A stretch of 48,643 nucleotides of DNA, from positions 1 to 48,643 of the forward strand of contig JAUIBG010000001.1 of NCBI GenBank assembly GCA_030428165.1, written 5' to 3'. The notes under the pieces were generated by a model. The model ran no database searches. It saw nothing but the letters and a program-made list of their open reading frames with translations, and had not been told where the DNA came from. Within the stretch, counting starts at the first letter, position 1; each line of letters starts with the position of its first letter. Made by a program: the position numbers and the translations under genes. This stretch comes from Actinomycetes bacterium (GTDB lineage Bacteria; Actinomycetota; Actinomycetes; Actinomycetales; Demequinaceae). Shown piece after piece: positions 32,723 through 42,108 of this stretch.

Positions 32723-34264
32723 ATGACCGAGGCAGGCGACGTGACGACCGGGGACCGGGCGCGGCTGCGTCGCGCCGCGGTGGCGGTCGTGGCGGAGGGC
32801 GCGCGTTGGGAGCCGGGCGACCTCGCCGGCATGTCCTATGCGCAGGCGATGGTCGCACTGGAGGAGGCGTCGGCGGTCAAGCGCCATGCCGACGCGTCGG
32901 TGTCCGCGCTCGCCGCGCACGTGAGACGGCTGTCGGAGCGGGTGCCTGGCGGAGATGAGGGGATGGCGCGCAAGGCCGGGTTCTCGTCGGCGACGCAGCT
33001 GGTCGCGACGGTGACGGGCTCGACCGAGCAGGAGGCCAAGAAGCTGGCCGATGCCGGTGAGGTCCTCGCGCTCGACGGCGCGTCTGGCTCCGGTCCCGAG
33101 CGGCAGGACGCTCACCTGGCGCCGGTGACGGGCCCGCAGCTGCCCGTGCTGGCGGCGGCACTGAGGGCGGGCGAGATCTCGGCCGATGCCGCCGCGATGA
33201 TCTCCCGCATGGCCCACCGGGTGCACGGCCGGGTGCCGGCGCAGAAGCTGGCGGCAGCGGAGAAGCGGCTGGTGGAGAGAGCGGCTCGACTGTCGTCGAC
33301 CAGGCTGTCGAGATACGTGAAGTACGTCGAGGCGACGCTCGACCCGGAGAGGCTCGAGCTGGACGAGCGGGCGCGTGAGGATGCGCGGTACCTGCGAATG
33401 GTCGACGAGGCCGACGGCATGGTGCGCATCGACGGCAGGCTCGACCCCGTGACGGCGGCGCCGGTGAAGGCCGTGCTCGACGGGATCGTGAAGGCGGCGT
33501 TTCGCGCCAAGCGCGAGCGAAAGGACCGCGGTGGGGTGGGAGCCGGGCCGGTCGACGTGCGCAGCGCAGGTCAGATCCGGGCGGACGGGCTCGCGGCGAT
33601 CGCGCGGCACATGAGCGGCTGCGACGAGGGCAAGGTTCCGGGCACGACCACGCGGATCGTGGTGCGGATGGACTACGACCAGCTCCAGGCGGAGGTCGAG
33701 GCCGCAGGCTTCTCGCTCGACGACGTGGCCGGCGACGTGCCCGGCGACGTGCCCAGCGACGGCGCTCGCTCGACCAATGGTCGCGGACACGGCGTTGCGA
33801 CGATCGAGGGAATCGACCAGCCCGTCACCGCAGGAGCGCTGCGGCGGTTTGCGGCGGATGCCGGGATCATCCCGGCGGTCCTGGGCGGGAAGTCCGAGGT
33901 GCTGGACCTCGGTCGCGAGGACCGACTCTTCTCCCCTGCTCAGCGAATCGCGCTGACCGAGCGGGACGGCGGATGCGCCTCGTGCGGAGCCCCGCCCTCC
34001 TGGACGGAGGCCCATCACATCAAGTGGTGGGACAAGGATTCAGGCCCGACTGACCTGGACAACGGGCTATTGCTCTGCGTGGCATGCCACAAGCAGATTC
34101 ATCGGGACAACTGGGGCATACGGATCGTCGAGCACGAGGTCTGGTTCGTGCCTCCGCCGTCGATCGACCCGGAACGCCGGCCACGGCCGGGGCTCACGAG
34201 TCAGCGACGTGCGTTCGCGGGGAGAAGTGCGCCCTCATCCGGGGCGCCGCCGAGCGCGGCGTAG
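32723..34264 (+). CDS. DUF222 (13E12-repeat-like) HNH endonuclease
   Basis: LDLGREDRLFSPAQR, RDGGCASCG, EAHHIKWW, TDLDNGLLLCVACHKQIH. Confidence 0.88.
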   Translation: MTEAGDVTTGDRARLRRAAVAVVAEGARWEPGDLAGMSYAQAMVALEEASAVKRHADASVSALAAHVRRLSERVPGGDEGMARKAGFSSATQLVATVTGSTEQEAKKLADAGEVLALDGASGSGPERQDAHLAPVTGPQLPVLAAALRAGEISADAAAMISRMAHRVHGRVPAQKLAAAEKRLVERAARLSSTRLSRYVKYVEATLDPERLELDERAREDARYLRMVDEADGMVRIDGRLDPVTAAPVKAVLDGIVKAAFRAKRERKDRGGVGAGPVDVRSAGQIRADGLAAIARHMSGCDEGKVPGTTTRIVVRMDYDQLQAEVEAAGFSLDDVAGDVPGDVPSDGARSTNGRGHGVATIEGIDQPVTAGALRRFAADAGIIPAVLGGKSEVLDLGREDRLFSPAQRIALTERDGGCASCGAPPSWTEAHHIKWWDKDSGPTDLDNGLLLCVACHKQIHRDNWGIRIVEHEVWFVPPPSIDPERRPRPGLTSQRRAFAGRSAPSSGAPPSAA

Positions 34265-34302
34265 GCGTCGGGCTGAGACCGCGGCCGTGCGGGGGCCGGG
34301 TC

Positions 34303-34782
34303 CTAGCCGAACTGCACGGCGAGCGTGTAGGCGATGACGTAGGTGATCGCCGCGCCAGCGAGGGAGTTCGCGATCGGCATCACGTAGCGCAGCCACGTCG
34401 GCATCTGGGTGTTCTTCACGAACTGGATGTTCATGAGCACCAGCAGGATCGCGACGACGACGCCGAGAGCGATGCCGGCGTAGGACACGGCACCCGCCAT
34501 CACGGCGATGATGGGCAGGAACGCGAGGACCTTCATCGGGGTCGGAACAGCGCCGCCCACGTTGAAGACCTCCTCACCGCCCACGACGAGGGTCGCGAAG
34601 CCGGGGACGACGCCGCGCTGGCGCACGCTGGCCGTCTTGCCGCCCGCGAGCGGGACGATCCAGGCACCCTTGCGGGTCTCGAGGCGTTCGCCGTTCATCT
34701 CCAGGCGATAGCGGATGCCCTCGGCGCCGACGACGTCGATGGGCGCCTTCGCACCGGGAATCGTGAACTGGTTGTCCGCCAT
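34303..34782 (-). CDS. Hypothetical membrane protein
   Basis: AGGAGG RBS; soluble N-domain plus about 3 TM. Confidence 0.7.
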   Translation of the reverse strand: MADNQFTIPGAKAPIDVVGAEGIRYRLEMNGERLETRKGAWIVPLAGGKTASVRQRGVVPGFATLVVGGEEVFNVGGAVPTPMKVLAFLPIIAVMAGAVSYAGIALGVVVAILLVLMNIQFVKNTQMPTWLRYVMPIANSLAGAAITYVIAYTLAVQFG

Positions 34783-34825
34783 GAATGCCTCCTGAGTAAC
34801 CGCAAGGAGGCTATCAGCGCGCGGT

Positions 34826-34873
34826 TGCCCTACGTGCCCAGCGCCCTACTTCCCCAACGCCCTACTTCCCCAG
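34826..34873. repeat. 16-bp tandem repeat x3 spanning the chdC stop
   Basis: TGCCCTACGTGCCCAG / CGCCCTACTTCCCCAA / CGCCCTACTTCCCCAG. Confidence 0.8.
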
Positions 34874-35569
34874 TGCCCTGCCGAGCAGCTCCGCTCCGTC
34901 GACGCGCGGGCCCGTGAAGAACGGGACCTCCTCGCGCACGTGGCGCCGGGCCCCCGTGGCGCGCAGGTCGCGCATGAGGTCGACGATTCGCGTGAGGTCG
35001 TCCGCCTCGAAGGCGAGCAGCCACTCGTAGTCGCCCAGCGCGAAGGACGACACCGTGTTGGCCAGCACGTCGCGGTGGTCCTTGGCCGCGGCGCCGTGCT
35101 CGCGCAGGAGCTGACGCCGCTCGTCCTCGGGCAGCAGGTACCAGTCGTAGCTGCGGACGAACGGATAGACGCAGACGTAGCCGCGCGGGGCATCGCCGGC
35201 CAGGAACGCGGGTACGTGGCCGCGGTTGAACTCGGCGGCACGGTGAACGCCGGCCGATGACCAGGCCGGCGCGAGCCTCGACCCAGCCGCATCCAGCACC
35301 GTCGCGAAGGCCTGCTGGAGCGTCTCGATCTCGGGAGCGTGCCACCAGACGAAGACATCGGCATCGGCCCGCATCCCCGAGACGTCGTACCAGCCGCGGA
35401 TGGTGAGGCCCTCGATGCTCTCGAGGGTCGCCAGGACCTCGGCCGCGGTGGCGTGCGCATCGCCGGTGCGAGTGGCGCGGAACGCCGAGTACATCGTGTA
35501 GTTGATCGAGGAGTTGATCTCCTCGGCGACGGCCGAGTGGTCGACGACAGGTGCCTCGGCGCGGGTCAT
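34862..35569 (-). CDS. hemQ: Coproheme decarboxylase (HemQ/ChdC)
   Basis: RGWYDVSGMRADAD, AEFNRGHVPAF, YPFVRSYDWYLL, EHG, FALGDYEW; ATGA overlap with hemH. Confidence 0.92.
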   Translation of the reverse strand: MTRAEAPVVDHSAVAEEINSSINYTMYSAFRATRTGDAHATAAEVLATLESIEGLTIRGWYDVSGMRADADVFVWWHAPEIETLQQAFATVLDAAGSRLAPAWSSAGVHRAAEFNRGHVPAFLAGDAPRGYVCVYPFVRSYDWYLLPEDERRQLLREHGAAAKDHRDVLANTVSSFALGDYEWLLAFEADDLTRIVDLMRDLRATGARRHVREEVPFFTGPRVDGAELLGRALGK

Positions 35570-36822
35570 CGGGCCCCTCCCACTCCGGTCGCGGTCGGAG
35601 CCTTGGGACGCCCGATCCCCTCGTTGTTGAAGGTGCGGAAACAGCAGTCGGGCGCGCAGGTCGCCCCCCAGGCGGGAAGGTCGCCGCAGACCGAGGGCTC
35701 CGCCGTGCCCATCCGCTCCTTGACGACCTGCACGAGGCCGTCGAGGAAGCGCGGGTGCGTCCCGGCGGTCGCGGCGCGCGCGAAGCCGAGTCCCAGGCGC
35801 TCGGCGGTCGCCGTCGCCTCGGTGTCGAGGTCGTAGACGACCTCCATGTGGTCGGAGATGAAGCCGATGGGCGAGAGCACCACGGCCGTCGAGCCAGCCG
35901 CAGCCATGGCCTCGAGCTCGTCGTTGACGTCCGGCTCGAGCCAGGGCACGTGCGGGGCGCCCGAGCGCGAGCAAAAGGTCAGCCGCCACGGCAGCTCACG
36001 GCCCAGCCGCTCCTCCGCTCCGGCTGCGACGAGCCCGGCAACTTCGAGGTGCTGCTCGGAGTAGGTCGCGGGGCGCGAGGCGCCGGACGCCTTCTCCATC
36101 GTGGTCGGGATCGAGTGGGTCACGAAGACCAGATCGGCCTCGGTGCCCTGTTCGCCGAGCGACTCGTAGGCCTCGACGACGGCGTCGATGTTCGCGTCCA
36201 CGAAGCCCTGGGTGTTGAAGTAGGCGCGGACCTTGTCGATCTGGAGCGGTCCTTCGACCTTCTCCGCTTGAATGCCGATGTCCTCGCGATACTGACGGCA
36301 GCCCGAGTAGGACGAGTAGGCGGCCGTGATCACCGTGAGGATGCGGCGCGCGCCGGACTCGGCAAGGTCGCGCAGCGCGTCCTCGGTGTAGGGATCCCAG
36401 TTGCGATTGCCGACGACGACCGGCAGGTCGATGCCCTCGGCCAGGAGCGCCTGGGCGAGCGCATCGCGGAGCGCCTCGACCTGGTCGTTGATGGGCGAGC
36501 GGCCGCCGAACAGGTAGTAGTGCTCCCCCACCTCCTCGAGGCGGGAGTCGGGGATCCCGCGGCCAGCGGTGACGTTGCGCAGGAAGGGCACGACGTCCTC
36601 GGGCACACGGGGCCCGCCGAAGCCTGCGAGGAAGATCGCGTCGTAGTCGCGGCTCGGCTCGGCCGTGGCGTTCGCGGCTGCCGTGGAGGGTGCCTCAGCG
36701 ATCACGCCGAAGGCTCTGCGCGGACGATCGGTGGCGCTCCGGCCTTCCGCACGTGTGCCGTCGAGCGCGGTATCGGAGGGGGCGGCAGACGTGACGAACG
36801 GGTTCAATTTGCGCAGGACCAT
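35566..36822 (-). CDS. hemH: Coproporphyrin ferrochelatase (HemH/CpfC)
   Basis: FGGP, PFLRNVTAGRGIP, RNWDPY, THSIP, WLEPD, GFISDHMEVVYDLD, C-terminal C..C..CC cluster motif; start 36822 or 36834. Confidence 0.92.
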   Translation of the reverse strand: MVLRKLNPFVTSAAPSDTALDGTRAEGRSATDRPRRAFGVIAEAPSTAAANATAEPSRDYDAIFLAGFGGPRVPEDVVPFLRNVTAGRGIPDSRLEEVGEHYYLFGGRSPINDQVEALRDALAQALLAEGIDLPVVVGNRNWDPYTEDALRDLAESGARRILTVITAAYSSYSGCRQYREDIGIQAEKVEGPLQIDKVRAYFNTQGFVDANIDAVVEAYESLGEQGTEADLVFVTHSIPTTMEKASGASRPATYSEQHLEVAGLVAAGAEERLGRELPWRLTFCSRSGAPHVPWLEPDVNDELEAMAAAGSTAVVLSPIGFISDHMEVVYDLDTEATATAERLGLGFARAATAGTHPRFLDGLVQVVKERMGTAEPSVCGDLPAWGATCAPDCCFRTFNNEGIGRPKAPTATGVGGAR

Positions 36823-36835
36823 GGTCCCGAACATA

Positions 36836-36896
36836 TCATCTGATGAACTACTTCATCTGATGATACGGTGGCTCTTCATCGGAGTTCATCTGATGA
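36836..36896. promoter_or_regulatory. Three palindromic operators TCATC-T-GATGA in the divergent promoter
   Basis: Identical 11-mers at 36836-36846, 36853-36863, 36886-36896; half-site TTCATC at 36875. Confidence 0.8.
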
Positions 36897-36934
36897 ATTC
36901 GATCATGCCATAGTCCCCGTCCCCGAAGGCACCG

Positions 36935-37984
36935 ATGACCACGCTCGCGACGCGCTCGAACGCGCCCTCGACCCGGCCTGCGCCGGTCAGGCGCGCGCTG
37001 CGCTGGGCGGTCCCGGCCGGGCTCGCACTGCTCGCGTTCACCGTGATCGTCGCCCTGGGACTCGGAGCCGTGAGGCTGCCTCCCGCCGAGGTGCTGCAGG
37101 CGCTGTTCGACCGCTCCGGCTCGGATGCCACGGCCTCCGCGATCGTCTGGTCGATCCGCCTGCCGCGCGTGATCGTGGCCGTCCTCGTCGGCGCGGCGCT
37201 GGCCGCTGCCGGCACGGCGATGCAGGCGATCCTCAGGAATCCCCTGGCCGAGCCCGGCGTGACCGGCGTGTCCGCGGGCGCGGCCTTCGGCGCCGTCGTC
37301 GGCATCACGGTCGGCCTCGCGAGCTCGCTGCAGTGGGGCGTGCCGATTGCGGCCTTCATCGGCGCCGGCGTGGTCGCCGGCATCCTCAACCTGGTCATGG
37401 TGCTGCGCAGGGACGTCGGCACCACCGGGATCATCCTCGTCGGCGTCGCCCTGAACTCCCTGGCAGGAGCCGGAATCGCCGCGCTCATCGCCAATGCGCG
37501 GGACGACGCGCTCGCCAGGGGCGCGCTGTTCTGGCTCGCAGGCGACCTCGCCCTGCGCGACTGGTCGCACGTCGCTATCGCGGTGTGCCCGATCGTCGTG
37601 GGCACGGCGTACCTGCTGGCCCGCACCCGTGCGCTCGACGTCCTCTCCCTCGGCGCCGATGTCGCCACCACCTCCGGCATCGACGTCCACCGCACACGGC
37701 TCATCATCCTGATGGCCGCCTCGCTCGTGACCGGCGCCGCCGTTGCGGTGTCGGGCGTGATCGCGTTCGTGGGCCTCGTCGTGCCGCACGCGGTGCGCCT
37801 CATCGTCGGCGCCGCGCACGCGAGGCTGCTGCCGCTGGCGATGCTCGCCGGCGCGATCTTCCTGCTGGTCGCCGACACGATCGCCAGGGCCGGCTTGGGC
37901 ACCGTCGTGCTGCCCACCGGCGTGGTGAGCGCGCTCGTCGGCGCTCCCGTCTTCCTCGCCCTGTTGCTGAGGAGGCGGGCATGA
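36935..37984 (+). CDS. FecCD/BtuC-family ABC permease
   Basis: IRLPRV, QAILRNPLAEPG, GVIAFVGLVVPHAVR, LVGAPVFL. Confidence 0.92.
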   Translation: MTTLATRSNAPSTRPAPVRRALRWAVPAGLALLAFTVIVALGLGAVRLPPAEVLQALFDRSGSDATASAIVWSIRLPRVIVAVLVGAALAAAGTAMQAILRNPLAEPGVTGVSAGAAFGAVVGITVGLASSLQWGVPIAAFIGAGVVAGILNLVMVLRRDVGTTGIILVGVALNSLAGAGIAALIANARDDALARGALFWLAGDLALRDWSHVAIAVCPIVVGTAYLLARTRALDVLSLGADVATTSGIDVHRTRLIILMAASLVTGAAVAVSGVIAFVGLVVPHAVRLIVGAAHARLLPLAMLAGAIFLLVADTIARAGLGTVVLPTGVVSALVGAPVFLALLLRRRA

Positions 37985-38862
37985 CGAACCTGCGACTCGA
38001 CTCCGTGAGCGCCATCCGCGCCGGGCGCACGCTCGCCGACTCGCTGACCGCCTCCTTCTCCCCCGGCGCCGTCGTGGGGCTCGCCGGTCCCAACGGCTCC
38101 GGCAAGTCGTCGCTGCTCGCCGCGATCGCTCAGCTGGGCGTCGAGCACACAGGGACCGTGACCTTCGGCGACGCCGACCTGGGGCGCCTGCACGCCAGGC
38201 AGCGGGCCGGAGTGCTGTCGATGCTCGCGCAGGACACCCACGCACCGGCCGAGCTCACCGTCGACGAACTGGTGGGCATCGGCGCGCACGCTGGACGGAA
38301 GGCGAGGCGGGGAAAGTGGGACGGGAAGGTCCGCAGCACTGGAACCCGCAGCACTGGAACCCGCGGCGATGAGGGCGCCACGACGACCGATACCCTCGCG
38401 GTCGTCGACCTCGCCCACCTGGCCCACCGCCGCATCGGCACCCTGTCCGGCGGCGAGCTGCAGCTGGTCCAGCTGGCGCGCGTGATCGCACAGGACACAC
38501 CCGTCGTCGTGCTCGACGAGCCCACCGCGGCCCTCGACCTGGGCCACCAGCACCGCATCGAGCGGATGCTGGCGCGGATGTCCGCGGACGGACGAATCGT
38601 ACTGATCGCCGTGCACGATCTGTCGCTCGCCCTCAACGCCTGCACGGACCTGATCTTCCTGACGGGCGACGGCAGCGTGCGCGTCGGCCCGCCGCTCAGG
38701 GTGCTGACAGGCGACACCACCCACGCCGCGTACGGCGTCCGCACCGAGATCCACACGACCTCGGACGGCCGGCACTTCCTCACCCACCACCACACGCCCA
38801 GCCTGCACGGGCAGGCGCGTCGCACCGTCCCCATCACCCCCGAGAACGAGGTAGCACTGTGA
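37981..38862 (+). CDS. Iron-chelate/porphyrin-type ABC ATPase (FecE/HmuV-like)
   Basis: GPNGSGKS, LSGGE, LDEPTAALD, VHDL; ATGA overlap; 15-bp duplication near 38331-38360 (RSTGT x2). Confidence 0.9.
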   Translation: MTNLRLDSVSAIRAGRTLADSLTASFSPGAVVGLAGPNGSGKSSLLAAIAQLGVEHTGTVTFGDADLGRLHARQRAGVLSMLAQDTHAPAELTVDELVGIGAHAGRKARRGKWDGKVRSTGTRSTGTRGDEGATTTDTLAVVDLAHLAHRRIGTLSGGELQLVQLARVIAQDTPVVVLDEPTAALDLGHQHRIERMLARMSADGRIVLIAVHDLSLALNACTDLIFLTGDGSVRVGPPLRVLTGDTTHAAYGVRTEIHTTSDGRHFLTHHHTPSLHGQARRTVPITPENEVAL

Positions 38863-39878
38863 GCTTCACCCGTCCCCTTGCCGCCCTTGCGGCCTCCGCC
38901 ACCGTCCTGCTGGCCTCCGCCTGCGGCGCCACCAGCGTCGCCGCCGAGCCCACTGCGGGGGCGACCGCATCGGCCACTGCCACGGCACAGGCCACGCCCG
39001 CGGAGTTCCCCCGCACGGTCGACGTGCCCGGCGGCCGCGACATCGAGGCGACGACCGTCACCGTCGACACGGAGCCCGTGCGCATCGCCGCGCTCAGCTA
39101 CGAGGCGGCCGAGGTCGTGGCCGCGCTCGGTCTTGCCGACCGCCTGGTGACCGTGCCAGAAGCCGTCACCAACCCGATCCTCACCAACCACCTGGACGAG
39201 ATGCTCGCGGTCGAGCACACCTCGGCCACCGAGTCGACCACCGACCCTGAGCAGATCCTCGCGCTGCAGCCGGACCTCGTGATCCTGTCCGCGAGGCACG
39301 GGCTCGAGGAGGGTGCGGGCGAGGTGCTCGCCGAGGCGGGCGTGCCCGTGCTGGTGTACCCGAACAGCTGGCACACCGTCGACGCGATGATCACCGACAT
39401 CGAGCTGACCGGCGCCGTCACGGGAGCCGATGCGGCGGCCGCCGATCTTGCCGCGACCATCGAGGCGGGCCTGGTTCCCGTCGCCAATGCCGGGGCCGAG
39501 GACGCTCCGCGCGTCCTGATCCTGTCGAACCAGGCTGGCATCCCCTTCGTCACCGCCGGAGCGGCGTTCCCGCTGGAGCTGGTCGCGCTCGCCGGCGGCG
39601 ATGACGTCTCCGACGAGGCCGGCGCCGCCTTCACCGGACCGATCACCGCCGAGCAGGTGGTCGCAGCCGCGCCCGACGCGATCCTGCTGATCGACATGAA
39701 TGGCTCCGGCGAGGCGTCGTTCGCGCCGATCATGGCCAACGAGGCCGTCGGCACCACTGCGGCCCTCCAGAACGGCCAGGTGCTCCTGTTGGCCGCGAAC
39801 GAGACCCAGGCGTTGGGGCTTGCGGGCACGATCGACGGTCTCGCGCAGATCGCCGCGTGGCTCGGGACGGACGCCTAG
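38859..39878 (+). CDS. Class III (FecB/BtuF/HmuT-like) substrate-binding lipoprotein
   Basis: LASAC lipobox; FPRTV, PVRIAAL, EQILALQPDLVI; GTGA overlap. Confidence 0.88.
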   Translation: MSFTRPLAALAASATVLLASACGATSVAAEPTAGATASATATAQATPAEFPRTVDVPGGRDIEATTVTVDTEPVRIAALSYEAAEVVAALGLADRLVTVPEAVTNPILTNHLDEMLAVEHTSATESTTDPEQILALQPDLVILSARHGLEEGAGEVLAEAGVPVLVYPNSWHTVDAMITDIELTGAVTGADAAAADLAATIEAGLVPVANAGAEDAPRVLILSNQAGIPFVTAGAAFPLELVALAGGDDVSDEAGAAFTGPITAEQVVAAAPDAILLIDMNGSGEASFAPIMANEAVGTTAALQNGQVLLLAANETQALGLAGTIDGLAQIAAWLGTDA

Positions 39879-39890
39879 CGACTCAGACTC

Positions 39891-40075
39891 GGGAGCAGGC
39901 GGCGCATCGGCGCCCGCTCCCCCACGACTTCGCCCGGCCGGCCACCCCCAGTTCCCCTCGATGCCGGTCGGGCGAAGCCCGCGTGAGCGCTCCGGGAGGG
40001 CGCCCAGAGCACCGCTCACGACCCCATCCGACCGCGGAGGGCCGGGCCCGATCAGGCCTGGACCTCCGCGGTCGG
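39891..40075. other. Array of four consecutive hairpins
   Basis: Stems at 39891-39921, 39928-39977 (15 bp), 39982-40020, 40028-40075 (13 bp plus inner stem). Confidence 0.65.
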
Positions 40076-40124
40076 TTAGTATCCGGGAGGCACATAGGCT
40101 CGAGCGATCAGTGGGGGTGAGCGC

Positions 40125-40862
40125 GTGAACGGCGGTTCCGGCACCGAGCGCGCGCGCACGACGCTGGCGTTCCTGCGCCGCAAGATCTCCTCGGGCGAGT
40201 GGCCCGTGAACTCGAAGATCCCGATCGAGCCCGAGCTCGCCGAGGAACTCGAGGTGGGCAAGAGCACCATCCGCGAGGCGGTCCGCTCGCTCGCGAACCT
40301 GGGCATGCTCGAGACGCTTCCGGGCCGCGGCACCTTCGTCCGCTCCCGCACTCCCGTGACGTCCGTGCTGATCGAGTACATCGAGGACTACGACGTCGAG
40401 GAGCTGCAGTCCGTGCGCCGCGCCCTCGAGATCGAGGCCGCGCAGATGGCGGCCGTGCACCGCACCGACGAGCAGCTCGCCGCGCTGCAGGAGGCCCTCA
40501 CGAAAGACCTCGAGGAGGACGCGGACTATCCGCGCGACTACGAGCACGGCTATCCCCCGCGCCAATTCCACTTCCTGATCTTCGAGGCCACCGGCTCGCG
40601 CCTGCTGCCGGGGCTGTACGCGGGCGTCATGACCGCGCTTCGCAAGGCGATCGACCGCGGCCACGTGGTCTACGGCGCCACCGCGCACACGCGTCACGCC
40701 GACCACGAGGCGATCCTCAAGGCCATCGAGAACCGCGACATCGTGGGGGTCGTGCACGCCATGGCGCTGCACGTGGACCGCGACCTGATCGGCGACGGCT
40801 CTGGACCCACTCAGCGCGCCGACGAGTTCACGTCGCGCGGCATGGGGCCGGTCGAGAGGTAG
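40125..40862 (+). CDS. GntR family, FadR subfamily transcriptional regulator
   Basis: wHTH IPIEPELAEELEVGKSTIREAVRSL..GRGTFV; FCD domain RRALEIEAA..FH..HEAILKAI. Confidence 0.9.
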   Translation: MNGGSGTERARTTLAFLRRKISSGEWPVNSKIPIEPELAEELEVGKSTIREAVRSLANLGMLETLPGRGTFVRSRTPVTSVLIEYIEDYDVEELQSVRRALEIEAAQMAAVHRTDEQLAALQEALTKDLEEDADYPRDYEHGYPPRQFHFLIFEATGSRLLPGLYAGVMTALRKAIDRGHVVYGATAHTRHADHEAILKAIENRDIVGVVHAMALHVDRDLIGDGSGPTQRADEFTSRGMGPVER

Positions 40863-40869
40863 TCGCGCC

Positions 40870-41718
40870 CTAGCTCGGGTGCTGCGCCCGCTGCGCGGTG
40901 GCCGAGGCATAGAGGCACACCGACGCCGCCGAGGCGAGGTTGAGGCTCTCCGCCTTGCCGTGGATCGGGATCCTGCCGACCGCGTCGCACAGCTCGAGGG
41001 ACTCGTCGGTGAGCCCCCACGCCTCGTTGCCGAACACCCAGGCGTGCCTGGAGTCCAGCCGGACCGCGCGGTCGCGGCCCCTGTTGCTCAGATCGATCTC
41101 TGACCCGCTGCCGTCGGCGCCGTAGACGGCGAGACCCGCCTCGTGCAGCGCGTCGACCGCCTCGACGAGCGAGACGCCGCGCACGACGGGCAGGTGGAAG
41201 AGGCTGCCGACGGTGGACCTGACCACCTTGGGGTTCGTGACGTCCACCGAGTCGTCGGCGACGATCACCGCATCGGCTCCTGCGGCATCGGCCACGCGGA
41301 TCACCGTGCCCAGATTGCCCGGATCACGCACGTTTGCCAGCACCGCCACGAGCCGTGCGTGGGCCAGTGCGGCGGTGATGTCGGCCTCGGCGTCGTCGAC
41401 GACGGCCACGAAGCCCTGCGAGTCCGAGCTCAGCGCGTCGATGACCTCAGGCGTCGCGAACCTGAACTGCGGAGGCGTCGAGCCCAGCACATCGGCGACG
41501 CGCAGGTCCTCGGTCTCGACGGAGACGAACACGTCGCGGATCCTGTCCCGCGCGAAGGCGACGGCCTCGCGCACGGCCTGGGGACCCTCGACGAGGAACT
41601 GCCCTGACTTGCGCCGGGCAGCAGAACGCCCCGCGAGGGCCACGGCCTTCCTGATCCGCTCGGCCTTGGGATTGGCGAGCGGGTCAGTCCGGTCGAGCCC
41701 TGCGGGGCGTCCGTGCAT
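40870..41718 (-). CDS. TrmH/SpoU-family RNA methyltransferase
   Basis: VRDPGNLGTVIR, FGNEAWGL, IPIHGKAESLNLA. Confidence 0.92.
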   Translation of the reverse strand: MHGRPAGLDRTDPLANPKAERIRKAVALAGRSAARRKSGQFLVEGPQAVREAVAFARDRIRDVFVSVETEDLRVADVLGSTPPQFRFATPEVIDALSSDSQGFVAVVDDAEADITAALAHARLVAVLANVRDPGNLGTVIRVADAAGADAVIVADDSVDVTNPKVVRSTVGSLFHLPVVRGVSLVEAVDALHEAGLAVYGADGSGSEIDLSNRGRDRAVRLDSRHAWVFGNEAWGLTDESLELCDAVGRIPIHGKAESLNLASAASVCLYASATAQRAQHPS

Positions 41719-41727
41719 GCGAGTGCC

Positions 41728-42108
41728 TTAGGCAGCCGGGGCGTTGACGTCCTCCGGCAGCGCCTTGCGGGCCACCTCGACGAGCGCGGCGAACGCGGCC
41801 TCGTCGTTGACCGCGAGCTCGGCGAGCATGCGGCGGTCCACCTCGATCTCAGCGGCCTTGAGGCCCTGGATGAAGCGGTTGTAGGTCATGCCGTTCGCGC
41901 GGGCAGCGGCGTTGACGCGCTGGATCCACAGCTTGCGGAACTCGCCCTTGCGAGCCTTGCGGTCGCGGTAGGCGTAGACGCCGGAGTGGGTGACCTGCTC
42001 CTTGGCCTTGCGGTACAGGCGCGAGCGCTGACCACGGTAGCCGGAGGCCTTCTCGAGGGTGCTGCGGCGCTTCTTCTGGGCGTTGACCGCCCGCTTGACG
42101 CGTGCCAT
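41728..42108 (-). CDS. rplT: 50S ribosomal protein L20
   Basis: [33 protein letters not shown]. Confidence 0.98.

What the first reader, a model, noticed from the sequence alone, without database searches (positions are those of the whole stretch)
34862..40862. Candidate coproporphyrin/porphyrin salvage divergon: CpfC-ChdC + FecCD-type importer + FadR-type regulator
Seen: only the two terminal enzymes of the coproporphyrin-dependent heme pathway, coupled by ATGA, with no hemE/hemY/hemABCDL in the window. They share a roughly 110-bp divergent promoter with a coupled ABC permease-ATPase-binding protein operon, followed by a FadR-type regulator. The block interrupts the normally adjacent TrmH-pheS genes. 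Known: CpfC inserts Fe into coproporphyrin III, ChdC converts coproheme to heme b, and FecCD/BtuC/HmuU transporters carry tetrapyrroles or iron chelates. I recall reports of actinobacteria whose growth depends on coproporphyrins from other species. Inference: import of exogenous coproporphyrin or coproheme and completion to heme, a cross-feeding module for which I know no dedicated transporter/regulator. The alternative is iron supply to the ferrochelatase.
Basis: partly seen in the sequence, partly recalled or inferred. Interest (0 to 1): 0.82.

Follow-up and report, generated by a model that had tools for sequence, protein, structure and literature searches.

The report
Porphyrin salvage cassette with respiration switch
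An actinomycete that has deleted its heme-building pathway carries a mobile six-gene cassette, shared with distant relatives, that likely imports a neighbour-made heme precursor (coproporphyrin), would finish it into heme, and likely controls a heme-using respiratory oxidase through the same DNA switch.

Summary
cpfC-chdC face a single-permease ABC importer and a GntR/FCD regulator across a 100-112 bp gap holding three perfect TCATCTGATGA palindromes. The host has lost de novo heme synthesis through two deletions inside contigs, one bridged in two other studies. It keeps cytochrome bd and aa3 genes. The same layout recurs in 16 of 16 distinct loci with enough upstream DNA, and cpfC is linked in 22 of 23 Leucobacter-genus carriers. 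Eleven of 30 carrier genomes lack hemA and hemE. The ChdC is foreign (p-AU 1e-6). The only other strong operator sites lie before cydAB, and are absent from 6 of 6 congener cydA promoters. The transporter's closest characterised relatives are HmuU, HmuV and HmuT-type proteins, but the heme-ligand tyrosines are missing. Best reading (0.62): coproporphyrin or coproheme salvage coupled to respiration. The ligand is untested. Against: 19 of 30 carriers keep de novo genes, the Leucobacter enrichment is weak (p 0.056), and there the operator also marks iron-uptake genes. No such importer or regulator appeared in nine literature searches. The scan earlier noted an analogous module with an IsdE-type protein in Sporosarcina (unchecked).

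The parts
34862..35569 (-). chdC (hemQ), coproheme decarboxylase of the cassette clade
   Evidence: NF042928 over cut-off; groups with cassette ChdCs 100/100, grouping with the congeners' native ChdC rejected at p-AU 1e-6
35566..36834 (-). cpfC (hemH), coproporphyrin ferrochelatase; start may be the second ATG at 36822
   Evidence: NF000689 and TIGR00109 over cut-off; H240 and E331 invariant; long branch, placement unsure
36836..36846 (.). operator palindrome 1, TCATCTGATGA
36853..36863 (.). operator palindrome 2, TCATCTGATGA
36886..36896 (.). operator palindrome 3, TCATCTGATGA
36935..37984 (+). single FecCD-family permease (type II ABC importer), closest solved relative HmuU
   Evidence: PF01032; HmuU E 1.4e-51, BhuU 6e-50, then HI1471, FhuB, BtuC at 1e-44 to 1e-43
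37981..38862 (+). ABC ATPase, best model HmuV-type
   Evidence: PRK13548 162.6 bits, below its cut-off of 261; the F420-0 model is nearly tied at 161.4
38859..39878 (+). class III substrate-binding lipoprotein of a distinct subfamily, without the HmuT-type tyrosine ligands
   Evidence: 58 proteins at 42% or more identity, then a drop to 34-36%; invariant Cys22; alignment to RhuT; model pLDDT 91
40125..40862 (+). GntR/FCD (FadR-subfamily) regulator, candidate binder of the palindrome
   Evidence: PF00392 + PF07729; downstream of the binding protein in 30 of 31 loci with downstream DNA; conserved H149, H194, H216

Best explanation
This is a horizontally acquired porphyrin-salvage cassette in a genome that has deleted its de novo heme genes: the ABC importer likely takes up a four-carboxyl porphyrin released by neighbours (coproporphyrin III, possibly as the zinc form or as coproheme), CpfC and ChdC would finish it into heme b, and the GntR/FCD protein likely binds the TCATCWGATGA palindromes to control both arms and the cytochrome bd operon. 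Shown: gene identities, conserved layout, loss of hemA/B/D/E/L/Y and native chdC-cpfC, foreign ChdC, and operator positions. From established knowledge: CpfC metallates coproporphyrin III and ChdC decarboxylates coproheme, so without HemY-derived supply both lack an internal substrate. Inferred: the transported ligand, the regulator-operator pairing, the effector (porphyrin, heme or a metal), and repression as the mode of action.
For: (1) Real auxotrophy. hemB is in 24 of 24 congeners but not G000; hemE and hemA are absent. In G003 and G043 the hemA-hemE-hemY-chdC-cpfC block lies between fumC and a siderophore permease. In G000 these flanks abut on contig C150, and single contigs from two other studies bridge the junction (X5 and X6). 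On C21 a degenerate hemC runs straight into the cbiX-like gene that lies beyond hemD-hemB-hemL in 4 of 4 congener loci checked. (2) Heme is still needed: cydABD, COX1 in 5 of 5 hem-less carriers tested. (3) Only two class III binding proteins exist in G000; the other sits beside a siderophore-interacting gene, and no HtaA or FTR1 was found. (4) Conserved divergon in 16 of 16 distinct loci with upstream DNA; none of 8 second-tier or 4 mid-tier transporters has cpfC, chdC or the regulator nearby. (5) Eleven of 30 carrier genomes lack hemA and hemE. Among 69 Leucobacter-genus genomes, all 6 hemE-less ones with cpfC or cassette-type chdC carry the binding protein; the other 3 lack cpfC. (6) Permease, ATPase and binding protein each rank heme importers first among characterised relatives, and both RhuT tyrosine positions are replaced by Thr124 and Ser223. 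(7) A matrix trained on 21 non-window sites ranks the 3 cassette sites and 2 cydA sites as the top 5 in the genome; 0 of 6 congener cydA promoters have a site within 1 mismatch. The motif equals the operator of the GntR protein LutR (PMC11734750, passages).
Against: No binding or expression data. Nineteen of 30 carriers keep hemE, so the cassette does not imply auxotrophy. The Leucobacter enrichment is weak: 6 of 24 vs 3 of 45, p 0.056; 5 of 23 vs 4 of 46, p 0.15 without reclassifying G480; kin are not independent. G026, a complete genome without hemA/B/E, keeps cpfC-chdC unlinked and has only a distant binding protein. Margins between heme, B12 and siderophore relatives are small (Z 24.8 vs 23.5), and no transporter gene reaches a curated heme cut-off. 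Conserved Tyr81, His111, His147 and Met280 could still ligate iron. In Leucobacter the palindrome occurs in 68 of 69 genomes and precedes iron-uptake genes as well as heme and respiratory genes. Several hem-less carriers are MAGs with completeness not shown. Coproporphyrin did not rescue two dependent Leucobacter strains (PMC6868719, PMC12285269, passages); their cassette status is unknown.
Confidence: 0.62

Rival explanations
1. The ABC system imports intact heme b with a non-canonical His/Met or Tyr ligand set. CpfC and ChdC ride along as heme-handling, repair or uptake-regulating proteins, or use porphyrin entering by another route.
For: All three subunits rank heme importers first. His147 (55 of 58), Met280 (56 of 58) and Tyr81 (53 of 58) are conserved. 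ChdC regulates heme uptake in mycobacteria (PMC12962153, abstract). It is the only candidate class III tetrapyrrole importer in G000.
Against: Heme import needs neither enzyme, yet both were found beside the transporter in 16 of 16 loci with upstream DNA and were regained after the native pair was deleted. The canonical tyrosine ligands are missing.
Confidence: 0.17
2. The transporter imports an iron chelate to feed the ferrochelatase, and the regulator is an iron or Fe-S sensor of a general iron regulon.
For: In Leucobacter the palindrome precedes siderophore-interacting proteins, FTR1, iron binding proteins, ferritin, acnA, sdhC and ctaE. The FCD histidine triad is conserved. Invariant Arg146 could bind a siderophore. 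Siderophore binding proteins score only 1-2 Z units lower.
Against: It leaves the porphyrin source of a hem-less cell unexplained. There is one permease gene, whereas G000's siderophore system has two permeases. In G000 strong sites occur only at the cassette and cydA, none upstream of sdhC, ctaE or acnA. Leucobacter has an IdeR-type repressor, with IdeR-like boxes beside the palindrome at uptake promoters.
Confidence: 0.12
3. The transporter imports a corrinoid, an F420 precursor or another cofactor, and its link to cpfC-chdC reflects shared regulation or history only.
For: The permease's best NCBIfam models are BtuC types (243 and 223 bits, below cut-off), and the F420-0 models rank high for all three subunits. 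One mid-tier relative lies before a CobN/ChlI/ChlD chelatase.
Against: No cobalamin riboswitch in 34000-42000. Solved HmuU and BhuU outrank BtuC. The linkage with cpfC is near-universal in the core subfamily.
Confidence: 0.06

Closest known systems
HmuTUV / BhuTUV / RhuT heme ABC importers (including Corynebacterium HmuT)
   Same: Class III binding protein, single permease and ATPase; top characterised hits for all three subunits
   Different: Only 20-25% identity in the binding protein; both heme-ligand tyrosine positions replaced; linked to ferrochelatase and decarboxylase instead of heme oxygenase or HtaA; operator of GntR type
Terminal coproporphyrin-dependent pathway (CpfC, ChdC) of Actinomycetota
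   Same: Both enzymes pass curated cut-offs
   Different: Detached from hemA/E/Y; order cpfC then chdC, reverse of the native operon; separate clade
Coproporphyrin-dependent Leucobacter sp. ASN212
   Same: Phenotype matches what the cassette predicts; the cassette is in 23 of 69 genomes of that genus
   Different: Its genome was not public and its uptake route uncharacterised per PMC6868719 (passages); primary papers seen only as citations; whether ASN212 has this cassette is untested
LutR of Bacillus subtilis (GntR family)
   Same: Operator consensus TCATC-N-GATGA (PMC11734750, passages); GntR + FCD architecture
   Different: LutR controls lactate use; here the sites precede heme and respiratory genes; orthology was not tested
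Known heme and iron regulators (HrrSA, ChrSA, DtxR/IdeR; Irr, recalled)
   Same: A regulon spanning heme synthesis, uptake and heme-using enzymes
   Different: Different fold. The 2024 review PMC10991733 contains no occurrence of 'GntR' (listing; passages). The Irr analogy is recalled and untested.

Membership tests
CpfC/ChdC terminal enzymes | Curated family cut-offs and conserved catalytic His/Glu of ferrochelatase | tested here: met
CpfC/ChdC terminal enzymes | Enzyme activity on coproporphyrin III and coproheme | not testable with these tools
   follows from family knowledge only
HmuTUV heme importer | Class III binding protein + single FecCD permease + HmuV-like ATPase | tested here: met
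HmuTUV heme importer | Tyr (or His/Tyr) axial ligands at the HmuT positions | tested here: not met
   RhuT N-lobe Tyr aligns to Thr124 and its C-lobe Tyr-x-Arg to Ser223/Gln225; no Tyr or His among the common residues at 122-127 or 223-226 in 58 sequences. Sequence alignment only; which RhuT tyrosines ligate heme is recalled, and CgHmuT His141/Tyr240 is from the PMC4926363 abstract start.
HmuTUV heme importer | Curated HmuV cut-off | tested here: not met
   162.6 vs 261 bits
HmuTUV heme importer | Binds and transports heme b | not testable with these tools
   needs a binding assay
BtuCDF corrinoid importer | Curated BtuC/BtuF cut-offs; cobalamin riboswitch upstream | tested here: not met
   243 vs 461, 223 vs 334 and 31 vs 234 bits; no riboswitch
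FecBCDE / FhuBCD siderophore importers | Two permease genes or a fused FhuB | tested here: not met
   one 349-aa permease in every complete locus; that two permeases typify these systems is recalled
IdeR/DtxR regulon | IdeR box in the promoter | tested here: inconclusive
   best match 9 mismatches, but the recalled consensus found no site within 4 mismatches anywhere in G000, even at the siderophore genes
FadR subfamily of GntR | GntR HTH + FCD domain with histidine triad | tested here: met
FadR subfamily of GntR | Binds the adjacent palindrome | tested here: inconclusive
   co-occurrence only: motif in 22 of 23 cassette and 11 of 11 regulator-cpfC promoters; motif variant tracks the paralogue; binding untested

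The most novel reading that the evidence does not exclude
The first dedicated coproporphyrin importer, packaged as a mobile cassette that lets actinobacteria discard de novo heme synthesis, together with an unrecognised GntR-family tetrapyrrole sensor whose regulon is rewired after transfer: new operators before cydAB here, and a genus-wide heme, iron and respiration regulon in Leucobacter. The cassette would be a genomic marker for coproporphyrin-dependent uncultured actinobacteria.
Probability: 0.45. Interest if true: 0.88.

Novelty: new variant of a known kind. Interest (0 to 1): 0.78.

Why it matters
Coproporphyrin cross-feeding has been reported as a growth requirement of a previously uncultured Leucobacter, but its uptake route was left uncharacterised (PMC6868719). 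Coproporphyrin III is produced by common actinobacteria and is reported to mediate interspecies interactions (PMC6104308). This locus names a candidate binding protein, a candidate regulator with a defined operator, and a cultured host (Leucobacter luti RF6), so the question becomes directly testable. It also predicts which hem-less MAGs should be cultivable with coproporphyrin, and points to a GntR-type heme or iron regulon not found in the papers searched.

Tried and rejected
Chimeric binning of the cassette: rejected; a contig of another study bridges regulator-trmH and another bridges flank-chdC. Native cpfC-chdC merely relocated: rejected for ChdC. For CpfC only a quick tree finished and its one-clade test did not, so this is unresolved. 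My interim idea that the palindrome is cassette-specific was dropped. My interim count of G480 as a non-carrier was corrected: it is a carrier split over contigs. Regulator replaces IdeR: rejected for Leucobacter, where an IdeR-type protein was read; in G000 a second DtxR-family gene exists but its protein was not read directly. Regulator-CpfC complex prediction: no answer, score 0.00, no evidence either way. Single-sequence fold of the regulator failed, pLDDT 38. Promoter/terminator scan found nothing. No RNA holder listed. The Atlas gave no answer for the window proteins, so a homologue was used. A class-wide sample of 400 found no core carriers, only 4 mid-tier ones; an order-wide sample found 2 core and 8 second-tier in 400. 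Search of earlier findings by sequence was empty. Rows left out of counts: L044 (duplicate of L041); loci too short upstream or downstream; L050 had no motif and is counted as a miss. Literature searches found no description of this importer or regulator. Subscription papers (Bhuiyan 2016, Takai 2017, Kim 2021 PNAS version) and all supplements were not seen and may bear on novelty.
Full report
Observation. ChdC and CpfC pass curated cut-offs. The other arm encodes a FecCD permease, an ABC ATPase, a class III binding lipoprotein and a GntR+FCD regulator. The overlaps are ATGA, ATGA and GTGA. The 100-112 bp divergent gap holds three perfect TCATCTGATGA palindromes; the genome has six in all, and two or more arose in 0 of 200,000 shuffles of the gap. 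trmH and pheS are not adjacent in 5 of 5 congeners: the cassette stands where they carry one to three other ORFs, GGDEF proteins where tested.

The host is a real heme auxotroph by gene content. G000 is a 94% complete, 229-contig assembly. It lacks hemB, which 24 of 24 congeners have, and lacks hemE and hemA. Congener HemA, B, D, E, L and Y gave no orthologous hit (query identities checked). In G003 and G043 the block hemA-hemE-hemY-chdC-cpfC lies between fumC and a siderophore permease. In G000 these flanks are about 190 bp apart on contig C150, and single contigs from two other studies span the junction. On C21 an intact but degenerate hemC (35-40% identity, active-site motifs altered) is followed directly by the cbiX-like gene that lies beyond hemD-hemB-hemL in 4 of 4 congener loci. 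The genome keeps cydABD, COX1, ctaE and sdhC, so it needs heme. It has one cpfC and one chdC and two class III binding proteins, this one and one beside a siderophore-interacting gene.

The block is a conserved, mobile cassette. The binding protein has no orthologue in 63 other genomes of the genus, nor the regulator in 5 of 5 tested. It defines a subfamily of 58 proteins at 42% or more identity. Of 33 genome and metagenome loci of that subfamily, all 16 distinct ones with enough upstream DNA show divergent cpfC(-chdC), and 30 of 31 with downstream DNA show the regulator. They include a Propionibacterium MAG, Leucobacter luti RF6, Leucobacter sp. OH1287 and an Actinomycetales MAG. Eight second-tier and four mid-tier transporters show none of these neighbours. 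In the genus of L. luti, 23 of 69 genomes carry it, with cpfC within 4 kb in 22. The window's ChdC groups with cassette ChdCs (100/100), and grouping with the congeners' native ChdC is rejected at p-AU 1e-6. The window's CpfC is on a long branch and keeps four cysteines of which 9 of 9 other cassette-type CpfCs lack three; its origin is unresolved.

Link with pathway loss. Eleven of 30 carrier genomes lack hemA and hemE (G000, G080, G082, G083, G420, G473, G480, G484, G492, G498, G505). hemB was tested and absent in the first five. In Leucobacter every hemE-less genome retaining cpfC or cassette-type chdC is a carrier (6 of 6), and the three hemE-less non-carriers lack cpfC. Against this: 19 of 30 carriers keep hemE, the enrichment is 6 of 24 vs 3 of 45 (p 0.056, kin not independent), and the complete genome G026 keeps cpfC-chdC without the cassette. 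The pattern fits a cassette that permits, but does not force, loss of the pathway.

What the transporter may carry. The permease's best solved matches are HmuU and BhuU. The ATPase's best model is HmuV-type, nearly tied with F420-0. The binding protein's best characterised matches are RhuT, BhuT, ShuT and HmuT, and the Atlas names the two nearest clusters of homologue P0004 'heme/hemin' binding proteins at 0.96 (automatic names). Margins over siderophore and B12 proteins are small. Both RhuT tyrosine positions are replaced, by Thr124 and Ser223. The subfamily instead conserves Tyr81, His111, Arg146, His147, Asn224, Gln225, Met280 and Gln317. This suits a carboxylate-rich porphyrin but does not exclude His/Met ligation of a metalloporphyrin. 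Distant relatives lie beside a CobN-type chelatase (1 of 4 mid-tier loci) and a nitrobindin (G026). The strongest argument is logical: without HemY-derived supply, CpfC and ChdC have a substrate only if coproporphyrin or coproheme enters, and this is the only unassigned class III importer in G000.

The regulator and its operator. TCATC-N-GATGA is the reported operator of the GntR protein LutR (PMC11734750, passages). A CATCWGATG core within 1 mismatch lies upstream of cpfC in 22 of 23 cassette loci and 11 of 11 Leucobacter loci where the regulator stays beside cpfC without this transporter. A matrix trained on 21 non-window sites ranks the three cassette sites and two sites before cydA as the top five in G000, at 24-28 bits; the next is 17.5, before a whiB gene. 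Six congener cydA promoters have none within 1 mismatch. So cytochrome bd appears to have joined the regulon in this lineage. In Leucobacter the regulator is in 69 of 69 genomes, mostly as two paralogues. The palindrome is in 68 of 69, before hemE, htaA, ctaE, sdhC, acnA, ferritin, FTR1 and siderophore genes (29 loci and some flanks read, of several hundred sites). An IdeR-type repressor is also present there, with IdeR-like boxes beside the palindrome at four uptake promoters, so the GntR protein probably reads a different signal. Whether that is porphyrin, heme or a metal is open.

Mechanism. Likely sequence: porphyrin from neighbours is imported, CpfC inserts iron, ChdC makes heme b, and the regulator adjusts the cassette and cydABDC together. 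Runs holding half or more of the region are biofloc, aquatic or unlabelled metagenomes, two of them possibly its source; dense aggregates suit cross-feeding. I put this reading at 0.62, heme import at 0.17, iron supply at 0.12 and another cofactor at 0.06.

Comparison with what is known. It works like a HmuTUV importer joined to the terminal coproporphyrin pathway, but fails the HmuT ligand test and curated cut-offs, so it is not filed as HmuTUV. PMC6868719 (passages) states that transport of heme precursors in coproporphyrin-dependent Leucobacter ASN212 could not be characterised for lack of a genome. It and PMC12285269 (passages) report failed coproporphyrin rescue of two other strains. PMC10991733 (passages) discusses HrrSA, ChrSA, HemX and SpxA1 and has no 'GntR' occurrence. 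PMC12962153 (abstract) shows ChdC can regulate heme uptake, which supports a rival. The acI preprint (passages) and PMC11139205 (passages) describe heme auxotrophs with Dpp or Hem-type uptake and suggest unknown receptors. PMC6104308 (passages) documents coproporphyrin III production by an actinobacterium. Nine searches found no description of this importer or regulator; subscription papers and supplements were not seen. An earlier scan note (e1-5282901) describes an analogous module with an IsdE-type protein in Sporosarcina; I did not test it, and it was found after my reading was formed.

Verdict. A real, conserved and apparently undescribed cassette; a new variant of known parts; interest 0.78.

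Noticed in passing
G000:C21:2361-3263 (-): Degenerate but uninterrupted hemC (35-40% identity to congeners, active-site motifs altered) retained at the deletion edge; decaying gene or second function.
   Followed up: partly
G000:C81:6861-6893 (L001:4862-4894): Two perfect operator sites before cydABD, absent from 6 congener cydA promoters.
   Followed up: yes
G000:C96:2591 (L002): Sixth perfect palindrome, upstream of a whiB-family gene.
   Followed up: no
L055:9898-11550 (G414): A GAF-GAF-MCP chemoreceptor-like gene inserted between cpfC and the permease, with operator-like sites on both sides; possible porphyrin-related sensing.
   Followed up: no
cassette CpfCs of L012, L014, L015, L055, L164, L166, L169, L174, L179: All nine lack three of four cysteines kept by native CpfCs and by the window's CpfC (C179, C393, C397); these are recalled as [2Fe-2S] ligands, suggesting a cluster-free clade.
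   Followed up: partly
window:36250-36758: In run X6 one contig matches both flanks but has about 650 unlike letters here, i.e. a divergent 5' half of cpfC in a related strain.
   Followed up: no
L184-L195 (Leucobacter-genus genomes): A stand-alone paralogue of the regulator with a CxxCP motif in the FCD loop; candidate global heme, iron or redox sensor.
   Followed up: partly
L213:6171-16320 (G659): Mid-tier transporter with tandem binding domains followed by CobN, an AAA protein and a VWA protein (chelatase-like set).
   Followed up: no
L218 and L063 (G026): Complete genome lacking hemA/B/E that keeps cpfC-chdC apart from a distant transporter, which lies beside a nitrobindin gene; possibly an unlinked version of salvage.
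   Followed up: partly
L074:163-1449 (G080): Operator upstream of a TIGR04053 radical SAM gene, a family related to the heme b synthase AhbD.
   Followed up: no
window:32723-34264 (+): DUF222-HNH gene between pheS and the 159-aa gene, not found at this position in 5 congeners.
   Followed up: no
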